Shown here piece after piece: positions 177-11,471 of a DNA stretch of 23,166 bases. The notes below the pieces were generated by a model. It did not search any database, was not told the DNA's origin, and was given only the letters and a program-made list of their open reading frames with translations. Position 1 is the stretch's first letter, and each line of letters begins with the position of its first letter. The stretch is from Dichelobacter nodosus. Its GTDB lineage: Bacteria; Pseudomonadota; Gammaproteobacteria; Beggiatoales; Beggiatoaceae. The stretch spans positions 11,922-35,087 of the forward strand of contig DYPE01000004.1 in assembly GCA_020720085.1 (NCBI GenBank). The letters run 5' to 3'. The position numbers and the translations under genes are program-made.

Positions 177-2402
177 ATGACTTTTTCCACCAGTCTGGTC
201 ATTTGGTCCATTCTGATTTTTTCCGTCATTACATTTGGCGTGCTGACGTTCATCGTCAGTTTTTTTCAAAAAGTTGAGCAAGGCAAAGCGCTCATCGTCA
301 ACACCATGAAATCTGAGCCAGTGGTGACATTCACCGGGAGAGTGGTGCTGCCGGTGATTCACAAAGCGGAAATCATGGATATTTCGCTGAAAACCATAGA
401 AATCGACCGACGCGGCAAGGATGGTTTGATTTGCCGCGACAATATCCGGGCGGACATTAAAGTCACATTTTTCGTGCGCGTCAACAAAACCGCTGAAGAT
501 GTGCTCAAAGTGGCGCAAGCCATTGGTTGTGCGCGCGCTTCTGACCCGGCTACGCTGGAGGAATTGTTTAACGCCAAATTTTCCGAAGCGCTGAAAAGCG
601 TGGGAAAACAATTGGATTTTGAGGATTTATATAAAGAACGCGATTCATTCCGCGACCAAATCATTGAGCTGATTGGCACGCATCTCAACGGCTATGTGCT
701 AGAAGACGCAGCCATTGATTTTCTTGAACAAACGCCATTATCCTCCCTAGACCCGTCCAATATTCTGGATGCGCAAGGCATACGCAAAATCACGGAATTG
801 ACCTCGCAACAGCATGTGTACACCAATGAATTTGAAAACCAAGAGCGGATGAAAATCACCCAGCAGAATGTTACTGCCCAGGAAGCTATTCTGGAAATGG
901 AGCGCCGCCAGGCTGATGCCATAGCCAAACAACAACGCGAAATCCAGACCGTGAAAGACCGCGAGGCTGCCGAGATTGCCCTGGTGGCAGCGCAAGAAAA
1001 ACGCCGCAGCGAAGAGGCGCGGTTAGAATCTGAAGAGCAAATTGGCATCCGCGATATTAATAAGCAACGCGAAATGGAAGTAGCAGAACAAAACCGCCGC
1101 CGCGTAGTGGGTATAGAAGAAGAACGGGTGAATTTGGCGCGTGAGCAGGAAGTGATTGCCCGCGAACGCGAAATCGCGCTGTTACGTATTGCCAAAGAAA
1201 AAGCAGTGGAACAGGAGAAACGCGATATTGCCAGTGTCATCCGCGAACGCATCGCGGTGGAAAAAACCGTGGCCGAAGAAGAAGAACGCATCAAGGAATT
1301 GCGCATGGTCGAGGAAGCCAAGCGCGAAAAACAAGTGACCATTTTAATGGCTGAGGCAGCGGCGCAAGAAGAATTGGTCAAAGACATCAAAAAAGCCGAG
1401 GCGCAAGAACAAGTGGCCCGCCACAAGGCGCAAGAGCAACTGACCCTGGCTGAAGCGGAACAACAGATTGCCGACAAAAAAGCCTTTGCCAAGATTCGCC
1501 TGGCCGAAGGAACACAAGCGGAAAATGCTGCTGCTGGGCTGGCGCAAGTGCGCGTCAAAGAAGCCAATGCCCTGGCCATAGAAAAAGAAGGCGCGGCGCA
1601 AGCCAAAGCGTTGCTGGAAAAAATGCAAGCCGAGGCAGGCGGTTTGGAACAAAAAGGCTTGGCTGAGGCGCGCGTGCGCGAAGCAGGCGCGCAAGCCACC
1701 GCCAAAGAGGGCACAGCGCAGGCCAACGCATTGTTGGAAAAAATGCAGGCCGAAGCCAGCGGCGAAGAGCAGAAGGGCATGGCCTTGATGCGCGTGCGTG
1801 AACAAGAAAGTGAAGTGATTGAGCGCAAAGGCGTGGCCGAGGCAACGGCATTGCGCGAAAAATGGCTGGCTGAGGCAGCGGGACTGACGGAGAAATTTAA
1901 GGCAATGGCAGCACTGACCGGCGATGTCAAGGCGCACGAGGAATTCCGCCTGCGCATGGAACAGCAACAGATATTGGCGCAAGCCGCGATTGACGGTCAA
2001 AAAGTGATGGCAGGCCATCAGGCGCAGGTGCTAGCAGAAGCGCTGAAACACGCCAAAATCGATATTGTGGGCGGCGATGAGGTCTTCTTTAACCGCTTGC
2101 TCAACGCCACTTCGCTGGCCAAATCTATGGACAGTTTCGTAAACCACAGCGCGACCACGCAAACCGTGTTGCACGATTATCTCAGCCAGAATGCCAGCAT
2201 CGTGGAAGACATTAAACAAATTCTGGCCAATCCTGCTATGAACGCGCAAAATGTGCAACACTTAACTTTATCAGCCTTTTTGGCGCAATTAATGCGCCAT
2301 GCCCAGCCCGAGCAGCAAGATCGGCTGGCGCCGCTGTTGGACTGGGTGGAAAAGCAGAAATTAGGCGGCATTGCCGCATCCACGCAGCCCCCCTCTGCTT
2401 GA
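177..2402 (+). CDS. Flotillin/SPFH (band-7) family membrane protein, YqiK-like, with a long Ala/Glu/Lys-rich coiled-coil
   Basis: Strong RBS (taaggagat) 6 nt upstream of the ATG. N-terminal transmembrane helix (LVIWSILIFSVITFGVLTFIV), followed by an SPFH-like region and an extended EA-rich coiled-coil typical of flotillin C-termini. A 741-aa ORF with coherent codon usage. Confidence 0.85.
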   Translation: MTFSTSLVIWSILIFSVITFGVLTFIVSFFQKVEQGKALIVNTMKSEPVVTFTGRVVLPVIHKAEIMDISLKTIEIDRRGKDGLICRDNIRADIKVTFFVRVNKTAEDVLKVAQAIGCARASDPATLEELFNAKFSEALKSVGKQLDFEDLYKERDSFRDQIIELIGTHLNGYVLEDAAIDFLEQTPLSSLDPSNILDAQGIRKITELTSQQHVYTNEFENQERMKITQQNVTAQEAILEMERRQADAIAKQQREIQTVKDREAAEIALVAAQEKRRSEEARLESEEQIGIRDINKQREMEVAEQNRRRVVGIEEERVNLAREQEVIAREREIALLRIAKEKAVEQEKRDIASVIRERIAVEKTVAEEEERIKELRMVEEAKREKQVTILMAEAAAQEELVKDIKKAEAQEQVARHKAQEQLTLAEAEQQIADKKAFAKIRLAEGTQAENAAAGLAQVRVKEANALAIEKEGAAQAKALLEKMQAEAGGLEQKGLAEARVREAGAQATAKEGTAQANALLEKMQAEASGEEQKGMALMRVREQESEVIERKGVAEATALREKWLAEAAGLTEKFKAMAALTGDVKAHEEFRLRMEQQQILAQAAIDGQKVMAGHQAQVLAEALKHAKIDIVGGDEVFFNRLLNATSLAKSMDSFVNHSATTQTVLHDYLSQNASIVEDIKQILANPAMNAQNVQHLTLSAFLAQLMRHAQPEQQDRLAPLLDWVEKQKLGGIAASTQPPSA

Positions 2403-2458
2403 AAAAAACAAATAAAAAAACAAGCAGGACTTGTGTTACCGTGTATGGCAATCCATAC

Positions 2459-2654
2459 TCAATCCTCTCAACTTAACGTAATATATTGATTTTTATTTAA
2501 TTATTTTTTGTGTGAACCCATCGCGGAGGCATGCCGTCAGGATACACCAAGGTTCTATACCGGTGTGTCGCCACTTCATAGCACCCTTAACGCAAGGAGA
2601 TTGAAATAAATATCCTTATAAATCAATTGATTGTTGCTAAGTTGAGAGGATTGA
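2459..2654. mobile_element. MITE-like 196-bp element with 17-bp perfect terminal inverted repeats and an 8-bp flanking direct repeat (putative target-site duplication)
   Basis: The left inverted repeat tcaatcctctcaactta (2459-2475) is the exact reverse complement of taagttgagaggattga (2638-2654). Both are flanked on the outside by atccatac (2451-2458 and 2655-2662). The interior is AT-rich and non-coding. Confidence 0.45.
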
Positions 2655-3008
2655 ATCCATACTCACTCAAACCAACAATACGACAAAAAGAAAAAACGAT
2701 GAAGCGGCTGCTTTATTATTTAAAATTGCCGTCAGCGCAAGCATTTTCTTGCCAAGTCTATGATTTTTGCCACTATCTGACCATGGCCGCATGTTGCTCG
2801 CGGTGCTGGGGCGTTTTATTGTCTAGGCCCAGCCAGTGGCACGACGATTATAGCTGTCGGAAGCGCTACGGATTTTTTAGCGCAGGCAATGGCAGGAAAC
2901 TTGCACTAACCTTGCCAAGACGTCAAATCATGGCGGCGTAACGCAAGTGCCGCAACAGCCTGGCAACTTGCGCTGGAAATAAAAAAGATTTTTAAACGAG
3001 TATGGGAA

Positions 3009-4034
3009 ATGCACAAGCTATCGACTTACGCCTTGGAAAAGAGCGATAAATTATACGTTAAGACCATGCTGGAGCTGGCCGCCAAGCTCTATGGCACGAA
3101 TTGGATATTCGAGGAAACCTTGAGCGAGGACGTGCTCGTGGACATAGATCAGCCAGCAGGACAAACGTTCTGGCAACAACGCGCGAACGATCCGCGCGTG
3201 ATTCCCTATGGCACTAAAAATACCATGAATGTCCCTATTTTTCTGCACAAGCCGTTGCGTGTGCAAGCCATTGTAGAAGTATTGCAACGACTGCCAGGCT
3301 CAGCGCAAACACCGGCACCCACACCGGCAACGCCCGCACCGGTGGCCACGGCACATGCCGTACCCACAGCGGATATTCACCATCCTGCGCATCCGCACAG
3401 TCCCGTGTTCATTCCTGACAATTATGTGGTCGGTTTGTTGTTGGCGGCACGCCACTCGCCGCCAGGTCAGGCGCACCACCTCATTATTGCTGGCATGGAG
3501 CATTTGTACATTTCTCCGCAAAAAAATGCGTGCTATAGCGCGGTGGCGCGCTTCACTCAAATTACCTCTTCGCAAAAATTATTATTATGTAGTCCAATTA
3601 AACAACTCGAACAAAAAAATATTTCCGAGCAAGAAGCACAGACGGCCATGGAACAAAAACATTTGGCGCAACACCCGCTGGAAAGTTTTTTATGGTACTG
3701 TGCGTTATGGTCGTCGCAAGGCAGGCTAATGGTCGGATACTCACCATCTACGCCAGTAAAATTAAAGCAATTTCCCAATTTCACCATTTTGCCCCATGAG
3801 CCGTTACACATGAAACTTGCTGCCTTCATGCTAAAAAATACTGCAACTTTGCATACCGTTGCCCAAGAGACCCATATTGCTATTGAAAAAGTCACTGATT
3901 TTTTTAATGCCTGCGTGATGATTGGCGTGATTCAGGCCGAGCCGATGGGGGCGCAAGAGAACACTAAAATCCGGAAAACCCAGCCGGAACGGCAAAATTT
4001 ATTCAAAAGTATTCTAACCCGACTTATTAAATAA
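3009..4034 (+). CDS. Hypothetical two-domain protein with a central Pro/Thr/Ala/His-rich linker (TPAPTPATPAPVATAHAVPTADIHHPAHPHSP); first gene of the GTPase cassette
   Basis: A 341-aa ORF. Its stop lies 15 nt before the ATG of the GTPase gene. No family recognised by eye; the N-terminal ~100 aa could be a degenerate receiver-like fold (speculative). Confidence 0.55.
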   Translation: MHKLSTYALEKSDKLYVKTMLELAAKLYGTNWIFEETLSEDVLVDIDQPAGQTFWQQRANDPRVIPYGTKNTMNVPIFLHKPLRVQAIVEVLQRLPGSAQTPAPTPATPAPVATAHAVPTADIHHPAHPHSPVFIPDNYVVGLLLAARHSPPGQAHHLIIAGMEHLYISPQKNACYSAVARFTQITSSQKLLLCSPIKQLEQKNISEQEAQTAMEQKHLAQHPLESFLWYCALWSSQGRLMVGYSPSTPVKLKQFPNFTILPHEPLHMKLAAFMLKNTATLHTVAQETHIAIEKVTDFFNACVMIGVIQAEPMGAQENTKIRKTQPERQNLFKSILTRLIK

Positions 4035-4049
4035 TACGTGGCAACCGAT

Positions 4050-4577
4050 ATGAAAGACATTAAACTCGTCTTTACCGGCAGCATGGGCGCTGGCAAGACC
4101 ACAGCAATTGCCACCATTAGCGAAATTCCCGTTATTAACACTGACGTGCGTGCCAGCGATGATGCTGCCTTGCGCAAAGAAAAAACCACTGTGGCGCTAG
4201 ATTATGGCGAAATTACTTTAGGCGATGGCCAAAAATTGCGGCTGTACGGCACGCCAGGGCAAGAACGCTTCAGTTTCATGTGGAAAATTCTCATGGAAGG
4301 CGCGCTGGGCGTGATTATCTTGGTGGATAATGCCGGTGAAAATCCCATGGCTGATTTGGAGTTATACATTCGCCATTTTCGTGGCCTGGTGGATGACAAT
4401 ATGATTGTCGTGGGTGTCACGCGCATGGACATTGCGCCCACGCCTAGCTTACAAGCCTACCACGATTATCTCACCGCCCACGATTTGTATATTCCGGTAT
4501 TTTCCTCGGATACGCGCGAGCCGGAACATGTGTCCATGCTGATTCAATCCCTGGTTGCCATGTTGGAATATGGTTAG
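4050..4577 (+). CDS. Small Ras-like GTPase of the MglA / conservon CvnD ('ATP/GTP-binding protein') type
   Basis: P-loop GSMGAGKTT (GxxxxGKT). Switch-II-like YGTPGQERF. The overall pattern KLVFTG..GAGKTT...ISEI, then TTVALDYG.I.L, then LYGTPGQERFSFMW matches the CvnD/MglA-like family. The ORF track begins at GTG 4038; the ATG at 4050 (MKDIKLVFTG) is the likelier start. Confidence 0.8.
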   Translation: MKDIKLVFTGSMGAGKTTAIATISEIPVINTDVRASDDAALRKEKTTVALDYGEITLGDGQKLRLYGTPGQERFSFMWKILMEGALGVIILVDNAGENPMADLELYIRHFRGLVDDNMIVVGVTRMDIAPTPSLQAYHDYLTAHDLYIPVFSSDTREPEHVSMLIQSLVAMLEYG

Positions 4578-4710
4578 GCAATTGCTGGAAAAGAAAGCCG
4601 CCGCTTGCGGGTATTTTACTTGACAGAAATTGCCTTAAGTAGCACCACTCGCTTTACAGCACCGCCCTTACAAACTCATTTTCATTTTCGTTCGGGAGCC
4701 ACGCCACGTT

Positions 4711-5085
4711 ATGTTGTCTAAAATTGAAGAAGCCCGTCTTACCAGTTATCTAAAAAATTTGTTAAATACCTGCCCAGCCATTGATGCGGCGATTGTTGCC
4801 ACTTTGGATGGCCACTTATGCGCCAGCGTACAAAAAGACAATTACACCATGGAGCGGCTAGCCACCATGGGCAGTAGCTTAATGTCCTTGGGCGACACGA
4901 TTACGGCGGAATTAAAAATGGGATCGTGCCAGAATATCATCTCTGAAAATGAGGGGGGCATTATCGCCTTCATGCACATCAATGAGTCCCTGGTATTGGT
5001 ATCGCTTACCACTTCCAAAAGCAGCCTAGGGCTACTGCTCAGCCATTCAAAAAAGTGCGCGGCGAAAATCGCCGACGCCATGTAA
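4711..5085 (+). CDS. Roadblock/LC7 (MglB / CvnB-like) domain protein
   Basis: A 124-aa protein with the characteristic Roadblock pattern (L..LL......AAIVATLDG..CASV.......LATMGSSLMSLGDTI........II.E.EGG.IAFMHI.ESLVLVSLT). A GGGAG Shine-Dalgarno is upstream. Sits immediately after the GTPase, the canonical GTPase/GAP pairing. Confidence 0.75.
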   Translation: MLSKIEEARLTSYLKNLLNTCPAIDAAIVATLDGHLCASVQKDNYTMERLATMGSSLMSLGDTITAELKMGSCQNIISENEGGIIAFMHINESLVLVSLTTSKSSLGLLLSHSKKCAAKIADAM

Positions 5086-5100
5086 GGCTGGAATCATTGC

Positions 5101-6675
5101 ATGGAATTGCATATTGCGGGCAGTGTGAATGGTAACAACGCAGGGTATGGTATTGAAGCAATCCAGCGAATATTAGATGCCCCCCGCCAAGATATGGCCC
5201 ACGGCTCATCTTGGACAGGGCGGCCTTCTACGCGGCTTCACCGCGACAGCGGGCACATGCTGAAAATCAAGGAAGAACTGCAAATGAATCTGGTTTCCTC
5301 GCAACGCTATGTTGAACAAGCGTTGGCGCGGGAACGCACCCTGCAAGTGCATCCACCTGAAAAAACTTGGTTTTACGCAATTTCTCCCGCAATGCCGGAT
5401 CAGCCGCTGATTGGCAACATCTGCCCACTGCTTACTCCGCTTAACCTGTATTTTGACCGCCATGGTGCAGCAAATCCAAGCGCTTGCCTGAATTATATCA
5501 TTCAGCTATGGGAACTGTATTTTCACACCATAACCACCCATAACGCCCGCCTGGACGAAGGCTTGTCCAACTTTGGCTTAGATGCGCATGACCGCTTATA
5601 CTATTTAGATGACGATCTCTACGCCTGGGATCGGTTCGTCACTTGCGGCCAAATGCTGGGCGTACAACTGCGCTCGCAGCCATGGATAGGTAAAACGCAA
5701 GGGATTGAATTGGGCAAAGCCTTGCGCCAGGCGATCCTGCGTTATTTTGACGACGCCCAATATCTCATCGTGCTCACCGAGCAATTGCGCGGCGTATTTC
5801 TCACGGATGCCCGCCGCCAAGTGTTGGAGGCGCTCATTAGCGGGCTGTATCAGCCCATCGGTCTAATCACCACCGCCACCGCCACGGCTCCCCCCGTTGC
5901 TGTGCCGCAACCCGCACCGCCACCACCACTCCCGAGCCGCTATCTGGCTTTGCTGGCCGACGTACACGCCAATCTGCCCGCACTGGAGGCTGTGCTAAAC
6001 TTTTTGCAGCAAAAAAACATTAGCCATGGTTTTGTACTGGGCGACGTGGTGGGCTATGGCCCGCACCCAGCAGCGTGCATTGAGCGCCTACAGCAAACCT
6101 GCTTAACCGTGCTTAAAGGCAATCATGACCAAGGCTTGGGCAGCAATAAAATCAACGATGGATATTCCATCACCGCCAAATGGGCGCTGGCTTGGAGCCA
6201 GCACCACACCAGTGCCGCACACCGCCAATGGCTATTGAACTTGCCCCCCGTGCTGTATGGCGAAGATTGGATTGCCCTGCACGGCGCGCCCATGGATCCG
6301 ACGTTTTTTAATGCCTACGTCTATGTCATGACCTATGAACAAAATTTGGATAATCTGGCACAGCGGGGCATCCGCCTGTGTTACCACGGCCACACCCACA
6401 TTCCTGGCATCTATGCCCGCACGCCAGATGGCAAGGATCTGCACGTATGGCAAGCGGAAATTGATCTAAATGAGTATAGCCACGCGCTCATCTGTCCCGG
6501 GTCTGTGGGCCAACCGCGCCACGGCTTTAGCGGCGCACATTTCGCGGTACTTGACCGCGAACAAAATAAGCTATTTTTTTATCAGATTCAATATGATATA
6601 CAGCAAATAATCAACGAAATGACCGCTGCCGGTTTTCCTGATGCACTCATCCACCGCTTGCGCACTGGCGCTTAG
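5101..6675 (+). CDS. Two-domain protein: unknown N-terminal domain (~270 aa), Pro-rich linker, and C-terminal calcineurin-like (PPP-type) metallophosphoesterase domain
   Basis: The C-terminal domain carries PPP phosphoesterase signature motifs: LLADVHAN (GDxHG-like), GDVVGYGP (GDxVDRG-like) and KGNHD (GNHE-like), plus downstream His residues. The linker is TATATAPPVAVPQPAPPPPLPS. An alternative start is ATG 5284 (MNLVSS) with the better RBS aaggaag. It lies in the same orientation immediately after the Roadblock gene. Confidence 0.7.
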   Translation: MELHIAGSVNGNNAGYGIEAIQRILDAPRQDMAHGSSWTGRPSTRLHRDSGHMLKIKEELQMNLVSSQRYVEQALARERTLQVHPPEKTWFYAISPAMPDQPLIGNICPLLTPLNLYFDRHGAANPSACLNYIIQLWELYFHTITTHNARLDEGLSNFGLDAHDRLYYLDDDLYAWDRFVTCGQMLGVQLRSQPWIGKTQGIELGKALRQAILRYFDDAQYLIVLTEQLRGVFLTDARRQVLEALISGLYQPIGLITTATATAPPVAVPQPAPPPPLPSRYLALLADVHANLPALEAVLNFLQQKNISHGFVLGDVVGYGPHPAACIERLQQTCLTVLKGNHDQGLGSNKINDGYSITAKWALAWSQHHTSAAHRQWLLNLPPVLYGEDWIALHGAPMDPTFFNAYVYVMTYEQNLDNLAQRGIRLCYHGHTHIPGIYARTPDGKDLHVWQAEIDLNEYSHALICPGSVGQPRHGFSGAHFAVLDREQNKLFFYQIQYDIQQIINEMTAAGFPDALIHRLRTGA

Positions 6676-6676
6676 G
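6625..6676 (+). repeat. 52-bp direct repeat, copy A, covering the last 16 codons and stop of the phosphoesterase gene
   Basis: gctgccggttttcctgatgcactcatccaccgcttgcgcactggcgcttagg recurs at 10139-10190 with one mismatch. Confidence 0.8.
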
Positions 6677-6939
6677 CCATGACTAACTGAATTCGCTTCA
6701 CAACTGAAGCGTGGGCAATGCCGCTGAAGGCTTTGTGCGCCTATCATCCCCCAGCCACTGGCAACCCTGCTGCTTTCCATCAAGACAGCAGCGCATTATG
6801 TCCGCTTCCGCTGTTCATCATGCAGGATTTGTATGAATTGGTGCGCGACTGCGACAAGGTGCTGACGCTCTGAATACGAGAAAAAAAATCATAAAAAAAA
6901 CATTTGGATGAAGATGGTGTGTCGTTGGATTATCCGGTC

Positions 6940-7335
6940 ATGGCCTGGTTCACCCTGATTACGGTCATAGGCAGCGTTGCCTGGTTTCTAATCGTATATT
7001 TTGCTGAAAACCTTACTCGGAAAACACGCATGAACCTGTCGGTCAAAGTCATTTCCCAACGACCGCCCGCTGGGCGTTGCACATTGTACGCGGCTTATGC
7101 GCAAGCGCTGGCAGAGGCGTTGGGCGCGTCAACCGAAATTGTTTTTAGCGCCCACCGCAACGCGCATGGCAACGGCTATCCCGCGCTGTGGCTCAATGGT
7201 CGGGCTTTGCAACCCGCAGATGGGGTGATTTTAACCCCAACCGACCTGCTGACCGCACTGAATATGGCGGAAAACACCGCACTGACCGAAGCGTTGGAGC
7301 AACCGTTGGCGCGGATGTTGGAGATGGTGCAATAA
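6940..7335 (+). CDS. Hypothetical small membrane-anchored protein
   Basis: The ORF track starts at TTG 6904. ATG 6940 gives MAWFTLITVIGSVAWFLIVYF, a transmembrane helix, followed by a soluble ~100-aa domain. No family recognised. Confidence 0.4.
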   Translation: MAWFTLITVIGSVAWFLIVYFAENLTRKTRMNLSVKVISQRPPAGRCTLYAAYAQALAEALGASTEIVFSAHRNAHGNGYPALWLNGRALQPADGVILTPTDLLTALNMAENTALTEALEQPLARMLEMVQ

Positions 7336-7396
7336 AGGCCTGTTGCCCATCCAGTGCCGCTTGTTATATCGCTACACTGTAACTACACTTTACTTC

Positions 7397-7690
7397 ATGA
7401 ACCACATCAAATTTGAGTGGAATCCAGCCAAGAATCTCGCCAACCAGAAAAAACACGGGGTTGCTTTTGAAGAAGCCAAAACTGTGTTTGCTGACGAATT
7501 TGGTCGCTTAATTCCAGACCCGGAGCATTCTGCGGGAGAAGAACGTTTTATTCTCTTGGGCAGGAGTGCGAATAGCAGACTGTTAATCGTCTGCCATTGC
7601 GAGCGCGGCATCGGTACAATCCGCATTATTTCTGCGCGCAAAGCAGACAAATTTGAACGTAAACAATATGAGAGCTATATCTATGCGTGA
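7397..7690 (+). CDS. brnT: BrnT-family (DUF497) type II toxin, ribonuclease
   Basis: MNHIKFEWNPAKNLANQKKHGVAFEEAKTVFADEF...ERFILLGRS...LLIVCHCER...IRIISARKA matches the BrnT hallmark (FEWD..KA..N..KHGV.F.EA..VF.D). The stop overlaps the antitoxin start. The ORF-track start 7343 is upstream; ATG 7397 is preferred. Confidence 0.8.
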   Translation: MNHIKFEWNPAKNLANQKKHGVAFEEAKTVFADEFGRLIPDPEHSAGEERFILLGRSANSRLLIVCHCERGIGTIRIISARKADKFERKQYESYIYA

Positions 7691-7892
7691 TTCTTATGAT
7701 TTTTCCAATTCGATTAAAAATCCATATGCCAACCACCTGAAAGAGCAGGTGACCATCCCTATGGACGAAGACACCATTGCCTATTTCAAACAATTGTCAG
7801 CAGACAAAGGTATTCCTTACCAAAGCGTTATCACCTTGTTTCTGCGGGATTGCGCACTAAAACGCCGCGAGTTAGACATTCATTGGTCATAA
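7683..7892 (+). CDS. brnA: BrnA-family antitoxin (RHH/CopG-like)
   Basis: MRDSYDFSNSIKNPYANHLKEQVTIPMDEDTIAYFKQLSADKGIPYQSVITLFLRDCA has the BrnA pattern (D.S......NPY.......I.I..D.D.I.YFK......G..YQ..IN..LR). Its ATG at 7683 overlaps the brnT stop (atgcgtga). Confidence 0.8.
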   Translation: MRDSYDFSNSIKNPYANHLKEQVTIPMDEDTIAYFKQLSADKGIPYQSVITLFLRDCALKRRELDIHWS

Positions 7893-7917
7893 ATGGATTG
7901 CGCCAAGGAGTCAAACG

Positions 7918-8410
7918 GTGAACCCTATTTACTTAGACTACAACGCCACCACGCCGATTGATCCGCGCGTAGTGGCAGCAATTCCCGCTGGGGTCGGTCG
8001 TGATGCCACTGACTATGCCATTCAGGTTAAATACGCCATAAAATGGTCAATTTACAACCCTGATTTTACAAGGGCTGACAAGCCAGCGGGAATTGCTGGC
8101 GTAGTGGAAGCGATGCTGCCCTGGTTGTGCGAAGGATTTGGCAATCCATCCTCCGCGCACATTTATGGGCACGCCGCGCACCAAGCAGCGAGTAGCCCGC
8201 ATGAAGTAGCGCGCAATGCGAGATTCCCGGATTCCGCTACGCTTCATCCGGGCTACTTGCTGCACAGCATCCCGCGCACACGGCGCAGTGCGCCTGTCGG
8301 TCGGGCGCTTTACCACCTTTGCCGAGATTGCGCGCGCCGCAGAAGTTTTGAGCGCCGCCTGGTGTACCTTAACCGGACATCTTCCGTATGACCACACTTT
8401 GGCCGGATGA
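7918..8410 (+). pseudogene. Remnant of a class-V aminotransferase / cysteine desulfurase (IscS/NifS-like) gene, with an in-frame 132-bp insertion, an internal deletion and frame changes
   Basis: The N-terminus MNPIYLDYNATTPIDPRVV...EAMLPWLCEGFGNPSSAHIYG matches the IscS start (IYLDY.ATTP.DPRV ... GNP.S..H). A different frame at 8216-8410 gives VRLSVGRFTTFAEIARAAEVL, matching the IscS C-terminal IRFSLGRFTTEEEID. Only ~0.5 kb remains of an expected ~1.2 kb gene. Confidence 0.65.
7976..8098. mobile_element. MITE-like 123-bp element with 16-bp perfect terminal inverted repeats and a 9-bp target-site duplication, inserted in-frame in the cysteine-desulfurase remnant
   Basis: cagcaattcccgctgg (7976-7991) is the reverse complement of ccagcgggaattgctg (8083-8098). 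A direct repeat gcgtagtgg flanks both ends (7967-7975 and 8099-8107); it encodes the duplicated RVV/VVE of the IscS N-terminus. The 123 + 9 = 132 bp adds 44 codons with no stop. Confidence 0.5.
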
Positions 8411-8819
8411 ACATTACCGTGCGCAACTTGAACGTTTGCGCGGCGCGATTGGGCGAACGGTGTATTTGATTGAACTCCACCCCAGCGCGATGCAACTGGG
8501 CATTTCCCTCACGGGCACTGCGTATGTGTTGTTGGACGTACTGCCTTTTCCCCGTCCTGACCCGACGCGCGGGCTTGCGCCGCACATGCTGGTGCTGGAT
8601 GACGGGCGCGGAGTGAATTTAGGGCGCATTGTGCGGGTGAGTTATCAACCGTTTACCGCAGATGCAGTGGAGATTGTGTATCAAGACGCCCATGCCGCCG
8701 AAACGCTTGTATTTGCGCCACGCCGCTTGTGCCAAGAACGGATTGCCGAATGCTCGCGGCAGGCGTTGGCGATGATTTTGGGCAAGCCCTTGCCGCCATT
8801 GTTAGAGCCGCCGCAATGA
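8388..8819 (+). CDS. Hypothetical protein (143 aa), translationally coupled to the downstream methyltransferase
   Basis: ORF whose stop overlaps the methyltransferase start (ATGA at 8816-8819). No recognisable family. Partly overlaps the pseudogene remnant, so it is uncertain. Confidence 0.4.
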   Translation: MTTLWPDEHYRAQLERLRGAIGRTVYLIELHPSAMQLGISLTGTAYVLLDVLPFPRPDPTRGLAPHMLVLDDGRGVNLGRIVRVSYQPFTADAVEIVYQDAHAAETLVFAPRRLCQERIAECSRQALAMILGKPLPPLLEPPQ

Positions 8820-9457
8820 CACGCGAAGAGGTGGTTCGCTATCACGCCTGGTACGCCACGCCGCGCGGCGCGTGGATGGCGGCGTGCGAGCTTGCTTTGT
8901 TGCGGGACTTGCTGCATCCTGAGCCGGAAGAACGTCTCCTGGACGTGGGCTGCGGCACAGGCTTTTTCAGCAGCCAATTTGCTGATTGGGGCTTGCATGT
9001 GACCGGCCTTGACCCGGACAGCGCGAGGCTGGACTTCGCCCGCCAACACGACCAGCGGATTGATTGGCTGGTGGGTCAAGCAGAAACGCTGCCGTTTGCT
9101 GACGCGCAATTTGATTACGCCGCCGCCATCACCAGTTTGTGCTTTGTAGCGCGACCCGCGCAAGCCTTGCAAGAACTGTGGCGCGTCAGCCGCCGTGCAG
9201 TGATTCTGGGGTTGCTCCACCGCCACAGCCTGTTGTGGTGGCACAAACGCCACGCGCTGGGCTATCGGGGCGCACGCTGGGATACCCTGGCAGATGTCCG
9301 CACTTGGGCAAAAGCCTTGCAGCCCGCGCCACAATTGGCTTGGCGCTACGGAATTTTTGAGCCATCCGCCAGCGGTTTCGCGCAAATAGTGGAATCCCGC
9401 CTGTCGCCACGCTTACCGCTGGGCGGATTTTTGGCAGTGGCATGGCGGCGCACATAA
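8816..9457 (+). CDS. Class I SAM-dependent methyltransferase (Methyltransf_11-like)
   Basis: Motif I LLDVGCGTGFFSSQFADWGLHVTGLDPD and a post-I acidic residue. Motif II/III region DWLVGQAETLPFADAQFDYAAAITSLCF...RRAVILGL. The ORF track extends upstream to 8729; ATG 8816 (MTREEVV) is preferred because of the ATGA coupling. Confidence 0.75.
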   Translation: MTREEVVRYHAWYATPRGAWMAACELALLRDLLHPEPEERLLDVGCGTGFFSSQFADWGLHVTGLDPDSARLDFARQHDQRIDWLVGQAETLPFADAQFDYAAAITSLCFVARPAQALQELWRVSRRAVILGLLHRHSLLWWHKRHALGYRGARWDTLADVRTWAKALQPAPQLAWRYGIFEPSASGFAQIVESRLSPRLPLGGFLAVAWRRT

Positions 9458-9517
9458 CCTATTCACTTATTTTGATTCGCTTTCTTAACTTCAACTGTAA
9501 AAAAAGGAGTCTTTCCT

Positions 9518-10030
9518 ATGAAAACAACCATGCGTTTTTTCCAAGCCGGAATCGTGGGCATTGCGCTGGGCTGCGCACACATCAGCTATGCGGCGGACGC
9601 GCCGCGCCCGGATGACAGTTTCGCCTTGAAAGGCGTAGAAGTCGGCAAGGTCGCGTTTGACATCACGCCTGGCGACGCCAAAAAATTGGCGCTGTTCTTA
9701 AAAGTCATCGCGCAAACCCATGCGGATTTGCTTCGCCAAAACGTCAAACCCGACATGGTGTTGGTATTTCACGGCGCAGCAGTACAATTGATCACCAGCG
9801 AGTATCCGGCGGATTTGGCGTTGGACGATGAAGACGCACGCAAAGAAATTGCCTCAATTTTGGCGGATTTACATCATAAAGGGGTGCGAATTGAGGCGTG
9901 TTCAATTGCCACTGAGTTGTTTAAGGTCAATACCCAGGCTTTGTTGCCAGGCATTGTGTTGGTAGGTAATACCTTTGTGTCGCAAATTGGCTATCAGGCG
10001 AAAGGATATGCGATTATTCCGGTGAATTAG
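9518..10030 (+). CDS. Exported protein (Sec signal peptide), tentatively DsrE/DsrF-like fold
   Basis: Excellent RBS aaaaaggag. Signal peptide MKTTMRFFQAGIVGIALGCAHISYA-AD. The mature ~145-aa domain (MVLVFHGAAV...GVRIEACSIAT) is reminiscent of DsrE/DsrF-like sulfur-relay-fold proteins. The family assignment is a low-confidence guess. Confidence 0.55.
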   Translation: MKTTMRFFQAGIVGIALGCAHISYAADAPRPDDSFALKGVEVGKVAFDITPGDAKKLALFLKVIAQTHADLLRQNVKPDMVLVFHGAAVQLITSEYPADLALDDEDARKEIASILADLHHKGVRIEACSIATELFKVNTQALLPGIVLVGNTFVSQIGYQAKGYAIIPVN

Positions 10031-10138
10031 CGCGATTGGATGCGCTCGGCAGGCGGTGCCCTGAGCTTGCCGAAGGGCGGCAATCAATTGCGCTAAACGA
10101 TGCGCTTCGCCAAAAGACGCTCAGCGCATCCTACGCGG

Positions 10139-10190
10139 GCTGCCGGTTTTCCTGATGCACTCATCCACTGCTTGCGCACTGGCGCTTAGG
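10139..10190 (+). repeat. 52-bp direct repeat, copy B (51/52 identical to 6625-6676); right boundary of the putative islet
   Basis: gctgccggttttcctgatgcactcatccactgcttgcgcactggcgcttagg. In frame it would encode AAGFPDALIHCLRTGA*, a duplicate of the phosphoesterase C-terminus. Confidence 0.8.
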
Positions 10191-10270
10191 CGATTACCGG
10201 ACAAGAAAATCCCAGCTTGCAGGCATTTTCTTGGACAGAAATCGCCTTACCCTTGGAAACCTCCGAAAGC

Positions 10271-10837
10271 TTACTGCCCCAGCCGTAGCGCGCGCAGCAA
10301 CCATTGCGCGGGTGGAGCCGATTTCACCGCGATTTTGGCTTGGCCGCGTGTGCCAGAGACAAAGGGGCTGGGATTGGCGCCGGTGTATTCGGTTTGTACT
10401 ACCGCCAGATTCGTTTGCAGCAGCACCGAAGTGAATGTGTTTGTTTGGCCCGGCGCGTGTGCGCCTGGTGGATGCACGGCCACCACAATGGCGGGAATCG
10501 CGCCAAGCGCGCGCGTTGCGCTATCAGGCAGATACACCCATGCGGTTTGGCCCTCTGCGAGAACAGCACTGGCTTGGGGCGGAAAATCGGCCCGCATCAT
10601 GCGTTCTATGTATAATTTGGCGCGTTGGCTAGCGCCTTGGCCATTAAAACGCATGGACGTGGTTTCCTGGTTAAGGACTTCCAGTTGATTACTGGTTTGG
10701 TACAGTGTCAACGGCATGAAAAAAAACCAATAGCTCCATGCCAGTGCCAGCGCTATGGCCAATCCCAACGCAGCCAAAGGGATGCGCGTTAGGTGTGGAT
10801 CCAGTGCCCGTTGCGTGCGTGAAAACGGCGCGGTCAT
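10271..10837 (-). CDS. Hypothetical membrane-anchored protein (N-terminal transmembrane helix, periplasmic domain)
   Basis: Minus-strand ORF with the helix IPLAALGLAIALALAWSYWFFF and natural amino-acid composition. The opposing plus-strand ORF (10155-10688) is Cys/Arg/Trp-rich and looks like a frame artefact. The ORF track begins at GTG 10846; ATG 10837 is preferred. Confidence 0.45.
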   Translation of the reverse strand: MTAPFSRTQRALDPHLTRIPLAALGLAIALALAWSYWFFFMPLTLYQTSNQLEVLNQETTSMRFNGQGASQRAKLYIERMMRADFPPQASAVLAEGQTAWVYLPDSATRALGAIPAIVVAVHPPGAHAPGQTNTFTSVLLQTNLAVVQTEYTGANPSPFVSGTRGQAKIAVKSAPPAQWLLRALRLGQ

Positions 10838-10894
10838 GCGCGCCACCCTGGTAGCGGATACCGGTAGCGGCGTTGCCGGTAGCGGCGCTGGCGG

Positions 10895-11314
10895 TCAGCC
10901 CACATCAACAATACGGTATTCATGCGTGATGTCGGCGGTTTTGTTTAACATATGGGACACAGAGCAGTATTTTTCTGCCGATAAATCAATGGCCCGTTTA
11001 ACATGCACTTCGCTCAGCGCGTTGCCGGTGACAATGAATTGCAGATGAATGCGGGTAAATACTTTTGGTTCGCTGTCCGCACGTTGTGCTTCTAGCAAAA
11101 TCTCGCAATCCGTGATTTCCTGTCGGCTTTTTTTCAAAATACTGATTACGTCCATCGCCGTGCAGCCGCCCAATCCCATCAACACCAATTCCATGGGCCG
11201 GGCACCCAAATTATTGCCGCCAATTTCCGGTGCGCCATCCAGGACAATGGCATGGCCGCTGTCAGCAGTTGCGGTTAGACAAGCGTTTTCCACCCATTTA
11301 ATTCGTGCTTTCAT
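10895..11314 (-). CDS. OsmC/Ohr-family peroxiredoxin-like protein
   Basis: MKARIKWVENA...GHAIVLDGAPEIGGNNLGARPMELVLMGLGGCTAMDVISILKK...HLQFIVTG.ALSE..V.RAIDLSAEKYCSVSHML is the OsmC fold signature, including the conserved Cys pair. RBS aaggaa 9 nt upstream of ATG 11314. The ORF track extends to 11374. Confidence 0.8.
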   Translation of the reverse strand: MKARIKWVENACLTATADSGHAIVLDGAPEIGGNNLGARPMELVLMGLGGCTAMDVISILKKSRQEITDCEILLEAQRADSEPKVFTRIHLQFIVTGNALSEVHVKRAIDLSAEKYCSVSHMLNKTADITHEYRIVDVG

Positions 11315-11349
11315 GTTCCACGGTTCCTTAACTAATTTATGAACTTTAC

Positions 11350-11378
11350 TTGACAACACCGCGCAAAACCGCAAGAAT
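11350..11378 (+). promoter_or_regulatory. Putative sigma70 promoter for tRNA-Met
   Basis: -35 TTGACA at 11350-11355, a 17-nt spacer, and -10 aagaat at 11373-11378. This lies ~16 nt upstream of the tRNA 5' end. Confidence 0.35.
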
Positions 11379-11394
11379 ATGCGCCTTTACGGAC

Positions 11395-11471
11395 GGCTAT
11401 GTAGCTCAGCTGGTTAGAGCGCGGCACTCATAATGCTGAGGTCGGTGGTTCGAGTCCACCCATAGCCACCA
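11395..11471 (+). tRNA. tRNA-Met (anticodon CAT), elongator type
   Basis: 77-nt cloverleaf: acceptor stem GGCTATG/CATAGCC, D-arm GCTC...GAGC, anticodon loop CTCATAA and T-arm GGTGG TTCGAGT CCACC, ending in an encoded CCA. G1-C72 paired and close similarity to enterobacterial metT argue for the elongator type rather than initiator. A lysidine tRNA-Ile2 cannot be fully excluded. Confidence 0.88.

What the first reader, a model, noticed from the sequence alone, without database searches (positions are those of the whole stretch)
3009..6675. Four-gene cassette: unknown Pro-linker protein, CvnD/MglA-like small GTPase, Roadblock/LC7, and unknown-domain-plus-PPP-metallophosphoesterase. A candidate uncharacterised GTPase-controlled phosphatase signalling module
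Ras-like GTPase plus Roadblock (MglA/MglB; conservon CvnD/CvnB) is an established GTPase/GAP pair. Here the usual conservon partners (sensor kinase CvnA, DUF742 CvnC) are absent. The flanking genes are instead a 341-aa two-domain protein with a low-complexity Pro/Thr/His linker, and a 524-aa protein whose C-terminus carries the PPP Ser/Thr-phosphatase-like motifs DVHAN, GDVVGYG and GNHD behind a ~270-aa domain with no recognisable family. All four genes are co-oriented with 4-130 nt spacers and share a lower GC than the gcv core. The same window encodes an FHA (phospho-Thr-binding) protein, so a phospho-Ser/Thr circuit gated by a small GTPase is conceivable.
Basis: partly seen in the sequence, partly recalled or inferred. 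Interest (0 to 1): 0.75.

Follow-up and report, generated by a model that had tools for sequence, protein, structure and literature searches.

The report
MglA-type GTPase switch with kinase-phosphatase partner
The first three genes are a small-GTPase switch already catalogued in 2014 but never studied functionally (a "Group 3 MglA system"); the fourth gene is a rare fusion of a previously unrecognised kinase-like domain with a phosphatase-type domain, and it travels with Roadblock proteins across phyla, which gives a testable lead to what these switches control.

Summary
The four co-oriented genes are real (3009-6675).

- **Genes 1-3 are a published type.** They match the "Group 3 MglA system" of Wuichet & Sogaard-Andersen 2014, written DUF>MglA>MglB.
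  - The partner protein has a receiver-like domain, a disordered Pro-rich linker and a winged-helix C-terminus.
  - The GTPase has GTPGQ in G3, a G4 without lysine (TRMD) and DTR in G5.
  - One MglB-type Roadblock protein follows.
  - It is not an actinobacterial conservon.
- **Gene 4 is the new part.**
  - No sequence profile detects this domain.
  - Its C-terminal domain is a YfcE/3RQZ-type metallophosphoesterase, not a PPP phosphatase.
  - The kinase-like domain is rare (130 clusters among 1.84 billion) and mostly sits in ~500-aa, fusion-sized proteins.
- **The linkage is real but one-sided.** 21 of 30 loci carrying the fusion have a dedicated MglC-like Roadblock paralogue nearby. Only 3 of 80 GTPase-anchored loci carry the fusion, and exactly those three have that paralogue.
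- **This window lacks that paralogue.**
- **No FHA domain was detected.**

Verdict: a new variant of a known kind, with the mechanism inferred rather than shown.

The parts
3009..4034 (+). Partner protein (P1) of a Group 3 MglA system, 341 aa. This is the 'DUF' of the published DUF>MglA>MglB gene order.
   Evidence: No Pfam family. Homologues lie directly upstream of the GTPase in 61 of 80 GTPase-anchored metagenome loci and in 14 of the 30 genome loci carrying the fusion. An HMM built from it detects the Neisseria gonorrhoeae counterpart at 1.5e-9. The architecture matches the description in PMC4316618.
3009..3293 (+). P1 residues 1-95: receiver (CheY-like) fold.
3306..3398 (+). P1 residues 100-130: disordered Pro/Thr/Ala/His linker.
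   Evidence: pLDDT below 50. Length and composition vary between homologues, as described for Group 3 partner proteins.
3408..4031 (+). P1 residues 134-341: the conserved core. It comprises an alpha/beta domain, a winged helix-turn-helix (about 3801-3938) and a terminal amphipathic helix (about 3984-4028).
   Evidence: W229, L252, P256 and F298 are invariant across 25 homologues. AF2 pLDDT is about 88-95. Family members give weak winged-helix Pfam hits (HTH_IclR 0.0014, HTH_43, HTH_47). No solved relative was found by sequence or Foldseek.
4038..4577 (+). MglA-family small GTPase of the Group 3 type (179 aa from GTG; 175 aa from the ATG at 4050).
   Evidence: Pfam ATP_bind_1/Roc/Ras. PDB hits: Rab/Sec4 3.3e-6, MglA 2.4e-4. 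Motifs: G1 GSMGAGKT; G2 TT (no arginine finger); G3 YGTPGQERF; G4 VTRMD (no lysine); G5 DTR (family consensus DAR). These are the traits published for Groups 2/3.
4711..5085 (+). MglB-type Roadblock/LC7 protein (the 'RoblA' clade), the presumed GAP or platform for the GTPase.
   Evidence: Pfam MAPKK1_Int 3.7e-7 and Robl_LC7 1.7e-5. PDB Roadblock proteins 7f8m 2.4e-8, 9jue 5.1e-7, and CvnB5 3leq 0.0029. It clusters with the Roadblock gene that follows the GTPase in 10 other loci. It contains the Asp-Gly pair (LDGH) noted for Group 2-5 MglB proteins.
5101..5862 (+). P4 residues 1-254: a new, sequence-orphan protein-kinase-like domain.
5944..6672 (+). P4 residues 282-524: binuclear metallophosphoesterase domain of the YfcE/3RQZ type.
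   Evidence: Metallophos_2 3.2e-11. PDB: 3rqz 5.4e-35, 1nnw, 2gju, YfcE, 3qfm. NCBIfam: phosphodiesterase/YfcE, below cut-off. Metal ligands D287, H289, D315, N341, H342, H394, H431 and H433 are conserved in 90-92 of 92 representatives.

Best explanation
The cassette is a Group 3 MglA-type G-protein switch with an accessory enzyme plugged in.

**The core switch (genes 1-3).**
- The 179-aa GTPase cycles between GTP and GDP states.
- The Roadblock protein is its MglB-like platform or GAP.
- The 341-aa protein is its dedicated partner: a receiver-like domain, a flexible linker and a conserved C-terminal region containing a winged helix. It most likely acts as a recruiter/GEF or as the output element.

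**The accessory enzyme (gene 4).** It fuses an atypical but catalytically intact protein-kinase-like domain to an intact binuclear metallophosphoesterase. I propose three things:
- It docks on Roadblock proteins. In most genomes it docks on a dedicated MglC-like paralogue; here it would dock on the only Roadblock present, or on a copy encoded elsewhere.
- It adds and removes phosphate on one shared substrate, either a module component or a downstream target.
- The nucleotide state of the GTPase sets the balance between the two activities.

**Shown:** domain identities, conservation of both catalytic sites, the published status of the three-gene core, and cross-phylum synteny with matched Roadblock subtypes.

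**Inferred:** GAP activity, docking, the nature of the substrate, and the direction of information flow.
For: **Core equals Group 3.**
- The gene order P1>GTPase>Roadblock and the GTPase motifs (GTPGQ, TT in G2, G4 without lysine, DAR-like G5) match the published definition and its supplementary table.
- HMMs built from this family find the Neisseria locus, a named Group 3 example.
- P1 lies next to the GTPase in 61 of 80 anchored loci, and a Roadblock gene is present in 57 of 80.
- In Nitrospira the receiver-like domain is fused to the GTPase in one ORF.

**The fusion enzyme.**
- Kinase-like fold.
- Both catalytic sites are conserved in at least 89 of 92 representatives that are no more than 50% identical to each other.
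- Most of the 130 hits for the kinase-like domain are ~500-aa, fusion-sized proteins: 79 of 130 fall in the 500-549 aa bin.

**Coupling.**
- Of 30 loci carrying the fusion, 17 have a specific Roadblock paralogue (HMM score at least 200 bits) within 350 nt, and 4 more have it within 7 kb.
- GTPase and P1 are also present in about half of these loci.
- In 80 loci fetched through the GTPase, the paralogue scores 224-227 bits only in the three loci that carry the fusion. It scores 99-120 bits only in the five loci that carry a different accessory enzyme, an ABC-ATPase/PTPase fusion.
- Of 50 control loci with a stand-alone phosphoesterase homologue (574 kb), two have a Roadblock gene near the phosphoesterase and none has P1.
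- The closest relative (L163, 58% identity) keeps the order P1-GTPase-Roadblock-fusion and adds the paralogue convergently.
- The paralogue's best solved relative is MglC, E 2.3e-4.
Against: - The fusion is an optional accessory. It is present in only 3 of 80 GTPase-anchored loci, and in 1 of 23 with at least 2 kb visible on both sides.
- Nine of the 30 loci carrying the fusion show no Roadblock paralogue, GTPase or P1 within reach, and its neighbours there are housekeeping genes. Four of the nine are cut by a contig end.
- This window itself lacks the dedicated Roadblock paralogue.
- The kinase assignment rests on a predicted structure plus motif spacing. No sequence profile links it to any kinase, and I could not inspect the structural superposition residue by residue.
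- The best structural neighbours (Bud32, Rio1) have no activation loop or substrate-binding subdomains by my recollection, and work largely as ATPases.
- The substrate of the phosphoesterase clade is unknown.
- No experimental data exist for any Group 3 system beyond a Tn-seq/colonisation phenotype in Snodgrassella.
- The promoter and terminator scan was no better than shuffled sequence, so the operon structure is inferred only from gene spacing.
Confidence: 0.5

Rival explanations
1. Nucleotide or second-messenger reading. The kinase-like domain is an ATP-driven switch or small-molecule kinase (as in Bud32/Rio ATPases, or WaaP/APH-type kinases). The phosphoesterase hydrolyses a nucleotide such as a cyclic nucleotide or Ap4A. 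The module would then link the GTPase to nucleotide signalling rather than to protein phosphorylation.
For: - Top structural matches include Bud32, Rio1, WaaP, aminoglycoside and sugar kinases.
- The phosphoesterase's nearest named relatives are YfcE-type phosphodiesterases and 3qfm; I recall 3qfm as an Ap4A hydrolase.
- Neighbours in related loci include a protein with a weak PilZ hit, globin-domain proteins and a PAS-GGDEF-EAL protein.
Against: - The alternative accessory enzyme at the same genomic position is an ATPase fused to a dual-specificity/tyrosine-phosphatase domain. That favours phosphoprotein or phospho-ester chemistry on a macromolecule.
- Structure alone cannot decide the substrate class.
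- The PilZ hit is below the Pfam cut-off (20.9 against 22.5 bits).
Confidence: 0.22
2. Adjacency without coupling in this genome. The fusion enzyme works independently, and in this organism it merely sits next to a complete three-gene Group 3 system.
For: - The window lacks the Roadblock paralogue that normally accompanies the fusion.
- Relatives at 47-50% identity (Thiomargarita and Thiotrichaceae MAGs L001-L003, L006, L019) encode the fusion away from any Roadblock paralogue, P1 or MglA-type GTPase gene; two of them (L006, L019) have the Arf-like GTPase protein next to it.
- A 53-nt duplication of the fusion gene's 3' end shows the locus has been rearranged.
Against: - The four genes keep the same order and tight spacing in the closest relative, L163, at 48-83% protein identity.
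- Only 15 nt separate the Roadblock gene from the fusion gene, with no terminator-like site between them on the + strand.
- Across phyla the association is far above the control rate.
Confidence: 0.18
3. One reading: a degenerate actinobacterial-type conservon in which the sensor kinase CvnA and the DUF742 protein CvnC have been replaced.
For: - The GTPase shares the GTPGQ and DAR-like motifs with CvnD-type (Group 2) proteins.
- The Roadblock protein hits CvnB5 at 0.0029.
- Both systems have four components, including one ATP-using enzyme.
Against: - No CvnA-like histidine kinase and no DUF742 are present.
- G4 is TRMD, not the Group 2 NxFD.
- The partner protein, the gene order and the gammaproteobacterial relatives are those of Group 3.
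Confidence: 0.04
4. An anti-phage defence or other mobile-island system.
For: Toxin-antitoxin and CRISPR-ancillary genes lie just downstream of the fusion gene: BrnT here, Card1 and HepT in L163.
Against: - None of the four proteins hits PADLOC.
- The kinase-like domain has no match in the plasmid collection. The only plasmid-collection hits for P1 are two Neisseria gonorrhoeae chromosomes filed as plasmids.
- Here the downstream genes lie inside a segment bounded by a 53-nt duplication, so they are a later insertion.
- In the loci scanned, the module's neighbours are varied chromosomal and housekeeping genes, with no mobile-element context seen.
Confidence: 0.03

Closest known systems
Group 3 MglA systems (Wuichet & Sogaard-Andersen 2014, PMC4316618): DUF>MglA>MglB(>MglB) in beta/gamma-proteobacteria
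   Same: - Gene order.
- GTPase motifs: GTPGQ, TT in G2, G4 without lysine, DAR-like G5.
- Partner protein with a receiver-like N-terminus, a variable linker and a winged-helix C-terminus.
- One coupled MglB-type Roadblock protein.
- Gammaproteobacterial relatives.
   Different: - That work lists no fourth component. The words 'phosphatase' and 'phosphoesterase' do not occur in the main text, and 'Metallophos' does not occur in the supplements.
- Here, and in a subset of other loci, a kinase-like/phosphoesterase fusion is attached.
- Most of those other loci also have a second, MglC-like Roadblock protein, which this window lacks.
Actinobacterial conservon / AGPS (CvnA-CvnB-CvnC-CvnD; Mfp system)
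   Same: A sister group of MglA-type GTPases with the same G3 and G5 peculiarities, a Roadblock partner reported to act as a GAP, and an ATP-using signalling enzyme in the operon.
   Different: - No membrane histidine-kinase-like CvnA and no DUF742.
- The ATP-using enzyme here is a soluble kinase-like/phosphoesterase fusion.
- The partner protein belongs to a different family.
Myxococcus xanthus polarity module (MglA, MglB, MglC, RomR/RomX)
   Same: A small GTPase, a Roadblock GAP, a second non-GAP Roadblock adaptor (MglC is the best solved match of the fusion-associated paralogue), and a receiver-domain protein that helps load the GTPase (abstracts listed).
   Different: - The GTPase there is Group 1, with TVPGQ and an intrinsic arginine finger.
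- No kinase/phosphoesterase fusion is known there.
- Any role of the present system in motility or polarity is untested.
Eukaryotic Roadblock scaffolds (LAMTOR2/3 = p14/MP1, which scaffolds MEK1; Ragulator-Rag)
   Same: The best Pfam hit of the window's Roadblock protein is the MP1 family, MAPKK1_Int. The logic is also shared: a Roadblock dimer acts as a platform joining a small GTPase and a kinase.
   Different: This is an analogy from my own knowledge only. No orthology is claimed, and the kinase-like domain here is not a MEK-type kinase.
Minimal atypical kinases Bud32/PRPK, Rio1 and WaaP
   Different: No detectable sequence similarity, a different N-terminal extension, and an obligate fusion to a phosphoesterase.
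3RQZ / 1NNW / YfcE-type metallophosphoesterases (Pfam Metallophos_2)
   Same: The C-terminal domain aligns end to end with 3RQZ (E 5.4e-35) and carries all the metal-binding motifs.
   Different: Those proteins are stand-alone, about 240 aa, and of unknown or phosphodiesterase function. Two of the 50 stand-alone homologue loci already sit next to a Roadblock gene.

Membership tests
Group 3 MglA system | GTPase G3 motif GTPGQ, with Thr-Thr in G2 instead of the Group 1 arginine finger | tested here: met
   YGTPGQERF and KTTVALDYG in the window protein; T50, T51, T72, P73, G74 and Q75 are invariant across 16 family members. Criterion taken.
Group 3 MglA system | G4 deviates from [NT]KxD (lysine lost), and G5 is DAR-like | tested here: met
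   G4 is GVTRMD. G5 is SDTR in the window and DAR in most relatives, with D158 and R160 invariant. Criterion.
Group 3 MglA system | An adjacent conserved partner protein with a receiver-like N-terminus, a variable linker and a winged-helix C-terminus, with no Pfam model | tested here: met
Group 3 MglA system | One or two coupled MglB (Roadblock) genes downstream, in the order DUF>MglA>MglB | tested here: met
   One Roadblock gene at 4711-5085. The order matches the supplementary table of PMC4316618.
Group 3 MglA system | Phylogenetic placement of the GTPase inside the Group 3 clade | tested here: inconclusive
   No tree with reference Group 1-5 sequences was built. Indirect support: HMMs from this family hit the Neisseria gonorrhoeae locus (GTPase 2.7e-48, partner protein 1.5e-9), and relatives are in Methylococcales, Chromatiales and similar orders.
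Actinobacterial conservon (Group 2; CvnA-D) | A CvnA-type histidine-kinase-like sensor in the operon | tested here: not met
   No HATPase/HisKA domain in the four proteins. The only histidine kinase in the window is at 16959-19196 on the opposite strand, 10 kb away.
Actinobacterial conservon (Group 2; CvnA-D) | A CvnC protein with DUF742 | tested here: not met
   No DUF742 hit in the window protein or in 24 homologues, even at E<=10.
Actinobacterial conservon (Group 2; CvnA-D) | G4 motif NxFD with a conserved Phe | tested here: not met
   G4 is TRMD (TRxD, THxD or TKQD in relatives). Criterion.
PPP-family Ser/Thr phosphatases | Signature motifs GDxHG, GDxVDRG and GNHE | tested here: not met
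   The sequence has ADVHAN, GDVVGYG and GNHD. The only protein-phosphatase model hit scores 16 bits against a cut-off of 326. The best solved relatives are 3RQZ/YfcE-type.
Calcineurin-like metallophosphoesterase superfamily (Metallophos_2) | The five metal-binding motifs: DxH, GD, GNH[DE], H, GHxH | tested here: met
   D287/H289, D315, N341/H342, H394 and H431/H433 are all present and conserved in 90-92 of 92 representatives. Pfam score 43.9 bits against a cut-off of 27.
   No ApaH model is among the NCBIfam hits. A conserved 254-residue extra domain is present in most relatives.
Protein-kinase-like superfamily (N-terminal domain of the 524-aa protein) | A bilobal kinase fold | tested here: met
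Protein-kinase-like superfamily (N-terminal domain of the 524-aa protein) | The catalytic constellation: beta3 Lys, alphaC Glu, D-x4-N catalytic loop, and the metal-binding Asp of the DFG position | tested here: inconclusive
   K55 lies on a strand, E78 on the following helix, then D152-x4-N157 and D170, with canonical spacing and 89-91 of 92 conservation. Residue-by-residue structural equivalence could not be inspected with the tools available.
Protein-kinase-like superfamily (N-terminal domain of the 524-aa protein) | A match to any kinase sequence model | tested here: not met
   No kinase family appears in Pfam at E<=10 for 22 members. A family profile finds no PDB chain at E<=10.
Protein-kinase-like superfamily (N-terminal domain of the 524-aa protein) | Phosphotransfer activity | not testable with these tools
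   Needs biochemistry.
Known anti-phage defence systems (PADLOC) | A match of any component to a defence-system model | tested here: not met
   No hits for the four proteins or their neighbours at E<=0.1.

The most novel reading that the evidence does not exclude
The kinase-like/phosphoesterase proteins are a previously unrecognised family of bifunctional (paradoxical) kinase-phosphatases. They would be recruited by a dedicated MglC-like Roadblock adaptor and toggled by an MglA-type GTPase. This would be a bacterial counterpart of eukaryotic Roadblock scaffolds that join small GTPases to kinases. The ABC-ATPase/PTPase fusion would be an interchangeable alternative plug-in, with its own matched Roadblock subtype.
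Probability: 0.25. Interest if true: 0.8.

Novelty: new variant of a known kind. Interest (0 to 1): 0.6.

Why it matters
Group 3 MglA systems occur in Neisseria, Xanthomonas, Stenotrophomonas, Acinetobacter, methanotrophs and sulfur oxidisers. Their inputs and outputs are unknown: the only functional hint I found is a colonisation phenotype in a bee-gut symbiont.

A subset of these switches carries a dedicated enzyme with intact kinase-like and phosphoesterase sites. The Roadblock paralogue next to it changes subtype with the type of accessory enzyme. Together these give a concrete, testable handle on what such switches control.

The analysis also adds a new, sequence-orphan branch to the protein-kinase-like fold. 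And it suggests that the Roadblock-as-kinase-scaffold logic, known from eukaryotic MP1/p14 and Ragulator, may have a bacterial parallel.

Tried and rejected
1. A second word-indexed homologue search with the partner-protein alignment found nothing new: 9 proteins, all already known.
I used the GTPase alignment instead.
3. The AlphaFold-database fold library was not available. Foldseek against PDB with the partner-protein model recovered only weak receiver-domain matches and nothing for its C-terminal 200 residues.
4. A profile search of the partner-protein family against PDB gave 0 hits. DUF742 homology was looked for and not found, so any equivalence to CvnC/MfpC remains an untested idea.
5. 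Profile searches of the kinase-like domain against PDB and Pfam gave no kinase hit. The assignment is at fold level only.
6. PADLOC gave no hits, and the kinase-like domain had no match in the plasmid collection. I rejected a defence or mobile-element reading.
7. An FHA link was looked for three times and not found.
8. The promoter/terminator scan gave counts within shuffle expectation, so it is uninformative.
9. I looked for a remnant of the missing Roadblock paralogue in the window by tblastn and HMM, and found none.
10. The upstream flotillin-like gene was considered as a fifth member. It is conserved next to the cassette only in the closest relative, absent from the other 30 loci, and replaced in a near-identical assembly. 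I left it out.
11. An hhalign comparison of the paralogue profile with the window's Roadblock protein was not significant. The two Roadblock types are very divergent.

Full report
**1. What is in the sequence**

The four + strand ORFs are as reported: 3009-4034 (341 aa, called P1 here), 4038-4577 (179 aa), 4711-5085 (124 aa) and 5101-6675 (524 aa, called P4). Spacers are 3 nt (15 nt from the ATG at 4050), 133 nt and 15 nt.

Pfam gives the following:
- Second protein: ATP_bind_1/Roc/Ras.
- Third protein: MAPKK1_Int/Robl_LC7.
- P4 residues 282-488: Metallophos_2/Metallophos.
- P1 and P4 residues 1-270: nothing.

NCBIfam agrees. It places the phosphoesterase nearest to YfcE-type phosphodiesterases. 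A protein-phosphatase model scores only 16 bits against a cut-off of 326. PADLOC finds nothing.

Cassette GC is 0.508, against 0.60-0.62 for gcvT/gcvP and 0.541 for the window.

A near-identical public contig, NCBI GCA_974327925.1, matches window 2460-16675 at 99.98%.

**2. Genes 1-3 are a published system**

The GTPase has G1 GSMGAGKT, G2 KTTV, G3 YGTPGQERF, G4 GVTRMD and G5 SDTR. Across 16 relatives the invariant residues include T50, T51, T72-Q75, D158 and R160.

Wuichet & Sogaard-Andersen (PMC4316618) define MglA Groups 2-5 by GTPGQ and by a Thr in place of the arginine finger. They define Groups 2/3 by a G4 that has lost its lysine and by a 'DAR' G5.

[quoted passage not shown] Their supplementary table writes the contexts as DUF>MglA>MglB(>MglB). 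Examples include Neisseria, Acidithiobacillus, Methylomicrobium, Nitrosococcus, Stenotrophomonas and Xanthomonas.

P1 fits this description point by point.
- **Model.** The AF2 model has mean pLDDT 81. It shows an alpha/beta domain at residues 1-95, a disordered stretch at 100-130, an alpha/beta domain at 134-252, a three-helix-plus-wing unit at 265-310 and a terminal helix.
- **Winged helix.** Family members give weak winged-helix Pfam hits.
- **Receiver residues.** In P1's close subfamily the acceptor-position Asp (D45), K81-P82 and E10/D13 are conserved. In distant members they are not. The domain is therefore probably a pseudo-receiver in general.
- **Link to a named Group 3 example.** HMMs built from this family detect the Neisseria gonorrhoeae locus: partner protein 1.5e-9, GTPase 2.7e-48, plus a Roadblock gene.

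The Roadblock protein hits solved Roadblock proteins (7f8m at 2.4e-8) and CvnB5 (0.0029).

The system is not a conservon:
- There is no CvnA-like kinase and no DUF742.
- G4 is not NxFD.

The only functional information I found for Group 3 comes from Snodgrassella, where mglB genes matter for gut colonisation.

**3. Gene 4 is the new part**

*Family.* P4 has more than 800 homologues, and nearly all of the best 120 are full-length at about 500 aa. They come from Beggiatoaceae, Methylococcales, Nitrospira and others.

*N-terminal domain motifs.* The N-terminal 254 residues are as conserved as the phosphoesterase domain. Motifs include HG..FTGRP.T, an invariant K55, E78, HP.KTWF, LDEGLSNFG and YYLDDD.

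*Catalytic pattern.* The pattern is K55 on a strand, E78 on the next helix, then D152-x4-N157, then D170 thirteen residues later. By my recollection this matches the canonical kinase constellation and spacing.

*Conservation of both sites.* I checked 92 full-length representatives that are no more than 50% identical to each other.
- Kinase-like site: K55 89, E78 89, D152 91, N157 91, D170 91.
- Phosphoesterase ligands: D287 92, H289 91, D315 92, N341 92, H342 91, H394 92, H431 90, H433 92.

Both sites are therefore under selection.

*No sequence-level link.* No sequence method sees the kinase relationship. A family profile finds no PDB chain at E<=10, and no kinase family appears in Pfam for 22 members at E<=10.

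*Rarity.* An exhaustive phmmer search of 1.84 billion representatives finds only 130 clusters. Most are fusion-sized: 79 fall in the 500-549 aa bin, and the shorter ones may be fragments or stand-alone domains.

*C-terminal domain.* It aligns end to end with 3RQZ (5.4e-35), and then with 1NNW, 2GJU, YfcE and 3QFM. The PPP signatures GDxHG and GDxVDRG are not met: the sequence has ADVHAN and GDVVGYG.

**4. Is gene 4 linked to the switch?**

*From the P4 side.* I fetched 80 genome loci.
- L001-L030 carry the two-domain protein.
- L031-L080 carry only a stand-alone ~240-aa phosphoesterase homologue.

HMM-based gene maps of the two-domain loci show a recurrent order: P1 - GTPase - Roadblock A - Roadblock B - P4. 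Alternatively, P4 lies convergent to that block. This is seen in Methylococcales, Chromatiales, Woeseiaceae, Competibacteraceae, Pseudomonas oryzagri, Marinobacterium, Zetaproteobacteria and Nitrospira (a REC-GTPase fusion there); Polyangiaceae shows only Roadblock B - P4.

Roadblock B is a distinct 135-aa family.
- It is 51-94% identical across these taxa, with one 30% outlier.
- It has no Pfam hit.
- Its best solved relative is MglC, at 2.3e-4.

I scored 30 P4 loci: L001-L028 plus L163 and L164, which were fetched through the two closest P4 homologues.
- A Roadblock B scoring at least 200 bits lies within 350 nt of P4 in 17 loci.
- It lies within 7 kb in 4 more.
- Nine loci have none, and four of those are cut by a contig end.

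In the 50 control loci (574 kb), two have a Roadblock gene near the phosphoesterase, directly abutting it in L033. One of them also has an Arf-like GTPase. None has P1.

*From the GTPase side.* I fetched 80 metagenome loci through the GTPase.
- P1 is adjacent in 61.
- A Roadblock gene is present in 57.
- P4 is present in only 3 (L090, L121, L137).

The Roadblock B HMM separates these loci cleanly.
- It scores 224-227 bits in exactly the three loci that carry P4.
- It scores 99-120 bits in exactly the five loci that carry a different accessory enzyme. That enzyme is an ABC-type ATPase fused to a dual-specificity/tyrosine-phosphatase domain.
- It scores 191 bits in L116, which has the f13 gene (a weak, below-cut-off PilZ hit) that neighbours P4 in other loci.
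- It scores 34 bits or less everywhere else.

So the second Roadblock co-varies with the type of accessory enzyme. This is the strongest indication of a specific physical partnership.

P4 is an optional plug-in of a subset of Group 3 systems. Other recurrent accessories are a ~530-aa protein with an Arf-like GTPase domain and a globin-domain protein.

**5. This window in particular**

The closest relative, L163, has a flotillin-like gene (78% identical), then P1 (48%), the GTPase (83%), Roadblock A (70%) and P4 (58%). Roadblock B is convergent and overlaps the P4 stop.

The window has the same five forward genes but no Roadblock B.

The last 53 nt of P4 (6625-6677) are duplicated at 10139-10191 with 98% identity. 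The copies bracket 3.46 kb that carry an unknown ORF, BrnT with its partner, two unknown ORFs, a methyltransferase and DsrE. The position where relatives keep Roadblock B has therefore been remodelled by an insertion. Whether the paralogue survives elsewhere in this genome could not be checked.

**6. Mechanism**

Shown:
- the identities of the domains;
- conservation of both catalytic sites;
- the Group 3 status of genes 1-3;
- the synteny and the matching of Roadblock subtypes to accessory enzymes.

Inferred by analogy with MglB and MfpD: the Roadblock protein acts as the GAP or platform of the GTPase.

Inferred from architecture:
- P1 is the recruiter/GEF-like or output partner. In Nitrospira its receiver-like domain is fused directly to the GTPase, which argues for direct contact between the two. 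Its winged helix led the 2014 authors to suggest transcriptional output.
- P4, docked on Roadblock proteins, writes and erases a phosphate on a common substrate, with the balance set by the GTPase state.

The direction of signalling and the class of substrate are open. P4 could be an effector of the module or a modifier of it. The substrate could be a protein or a small molecule/nucleotide.

I put about 0.85 on the identification, meaning Group 3 plus a kinase-like/phosphoesterase accessory. I put about 0.6 on functional coupling in general, and about 0.35 on the specific picture of a GTPase-gated bifunctional protein kinase/phosphatase.

**7. Rivals**
- **Nucleotide or second-messenger enzyme (0.22).** The Bud32/Rio/WaaP/APH matches and the YfcE-type relatives allow it. 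The PTPase-type alternative accessory argues for phosphoprotein-type chemistry.
- **Mere adjacency in this genome (0.18).** This is supported by the missing paralogue and by relatives with orphan P4 genes. It is opposed by the conserved order in L163 and the 15-nt spacing.
- **A degenerate conservon (0.04) or a defence system (0.03).** Both fail their membership tests.

**8. Novelty and interest**

The three-gene core is known, though only bioinformatically. I found no paper that links Roadblock/MglA systems with a metallophosphoesterase or a kinase-like fusion.

The new elements are:
- a sequence-orphan kinase-like domain;
- its near-constant fusion to a phosphoesterase;
- its cross-phylum pairing with a dedicated MglC-like Roadblock;
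- the pattern that Group 3 switches accept interchangeable fusions of an NTP-binding domain with a phosphatase domain.

I rate this a new variant of a known kind, with interest about 0.6.

Noticed in passing
window 6625-6677 and 10139-10191: A 53-nt direct repeat (98% identical) duplicates the 3' end of the fusion gene. It brackets 3.46 kb carrying an unknown 131-aa ORF, BrnT with its partner, two unknown ORFs, a methyltransferase and DsrE. This looks like an insertion at the spot where relatives encode the convergent Roadblock paralogue.
   Followed up: partly
window 2450-2668: A 17-nt perfect inverted repeat (2459-2475 / 2638-2654) overlaps a 15-nt direct repeat (2450-2464 / 2654-2668). Identity with the public contig CDCLRE010000004.1 begins at about 2460. 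Upstream of that point the contig has cytochrome c assembly and SAICAR synthase genes instead of the flotillin-like gene. This is either a rearrangement or an assembly breakpoint.
   Followed up: partly
window 177-2402: A 741-aa protein with an N-terminal hydrophobic segment and a long Ala/Glu-rich coiled-coil. It has no Pfam hit and only a weak FloT (flotillin) NCBIfam match (0.0013). It is 78% identical, and in the same position upstream of the cassette, in the closest relative L163, but is absent from the other related loci.
   Followed up: partly
window 22112-23164 (partial ORF running off the end): A 351-aa partial ORF with tandem 'GVARSTG'-like heptads near its start and weak multihaem/CXXCH hits near residues 255-332. 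By eye a stretch looks FHA-like, but no FHA hit appeared at any threshold.
   Followed up: partly
L005 1489-2496 (Nitrospira MAG): A single 335-aa ORF joins a receiver-like domain and linker (residues 1 to about 150) directly to the MglA-type GTPase (158-334). The partner protein's C-terminal winged-helix region is missing. This is a natural fusion that argues for direct contact between the receiver-like domain and the GTPase.
   Followed up: partly
L013 3898-6950; L005 6901-9845; L091, L094, L125, L130, L083 (metagenome loci): Other recurrent accessory genes of these GTPase/Roadblock clusters are: a ~530-aa protein with an Arf/Rag-like GTPase domain; a ~450-aa ABC-type ATPase fused to a DSP/PTP phosphatase domain; a ~530-aa protein with a sub-threshold PilZ hit; and a double-globin protein.
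   Followed up: partly
L033 7001-8268 and L039 189-2219: Two stand-alone (~240-aa) phosphoesterase homologues from unrelated phyla have a Roadblock gene just downstream (3 nt away in L033, about 50 nt in L039). In L039 an Arf-like GTPase follows. The phosphoesterase-Roadblock link may therefore be older than the kinase-like fusion.
   Followed up: no
L165 4469-7138 (Neisseria gonorrhoeae NZ_CP119142.1, a 2.17-Mb record filed as a plasmid): In the gonococcal Group 3 locus the partner protein is split into three ORFs and the GTPase into two. This suggests frameshifts, either pseudogenisation or sequencing errors. The record is a chromosome mislabelled as a plasmid.
   Followed up: no
window 16959-22000, minus strand: A hybrid sensor kinase (CHASE8-HAMP-HisKA-HATPase-REC), a YfiR/HmsC-like protein and a TonB-dependent receptor form a separate, unrelated signalling cluster about 10 kb from the cassette.
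   Followed up: no
window 4578-4710: The spacer between the GTPase and Roadblock genes is unusually long at 133 nt; relatives have about 10-30 nt. It contains no ORF and no scan hit, and no function is assigned.
   Followed up: no
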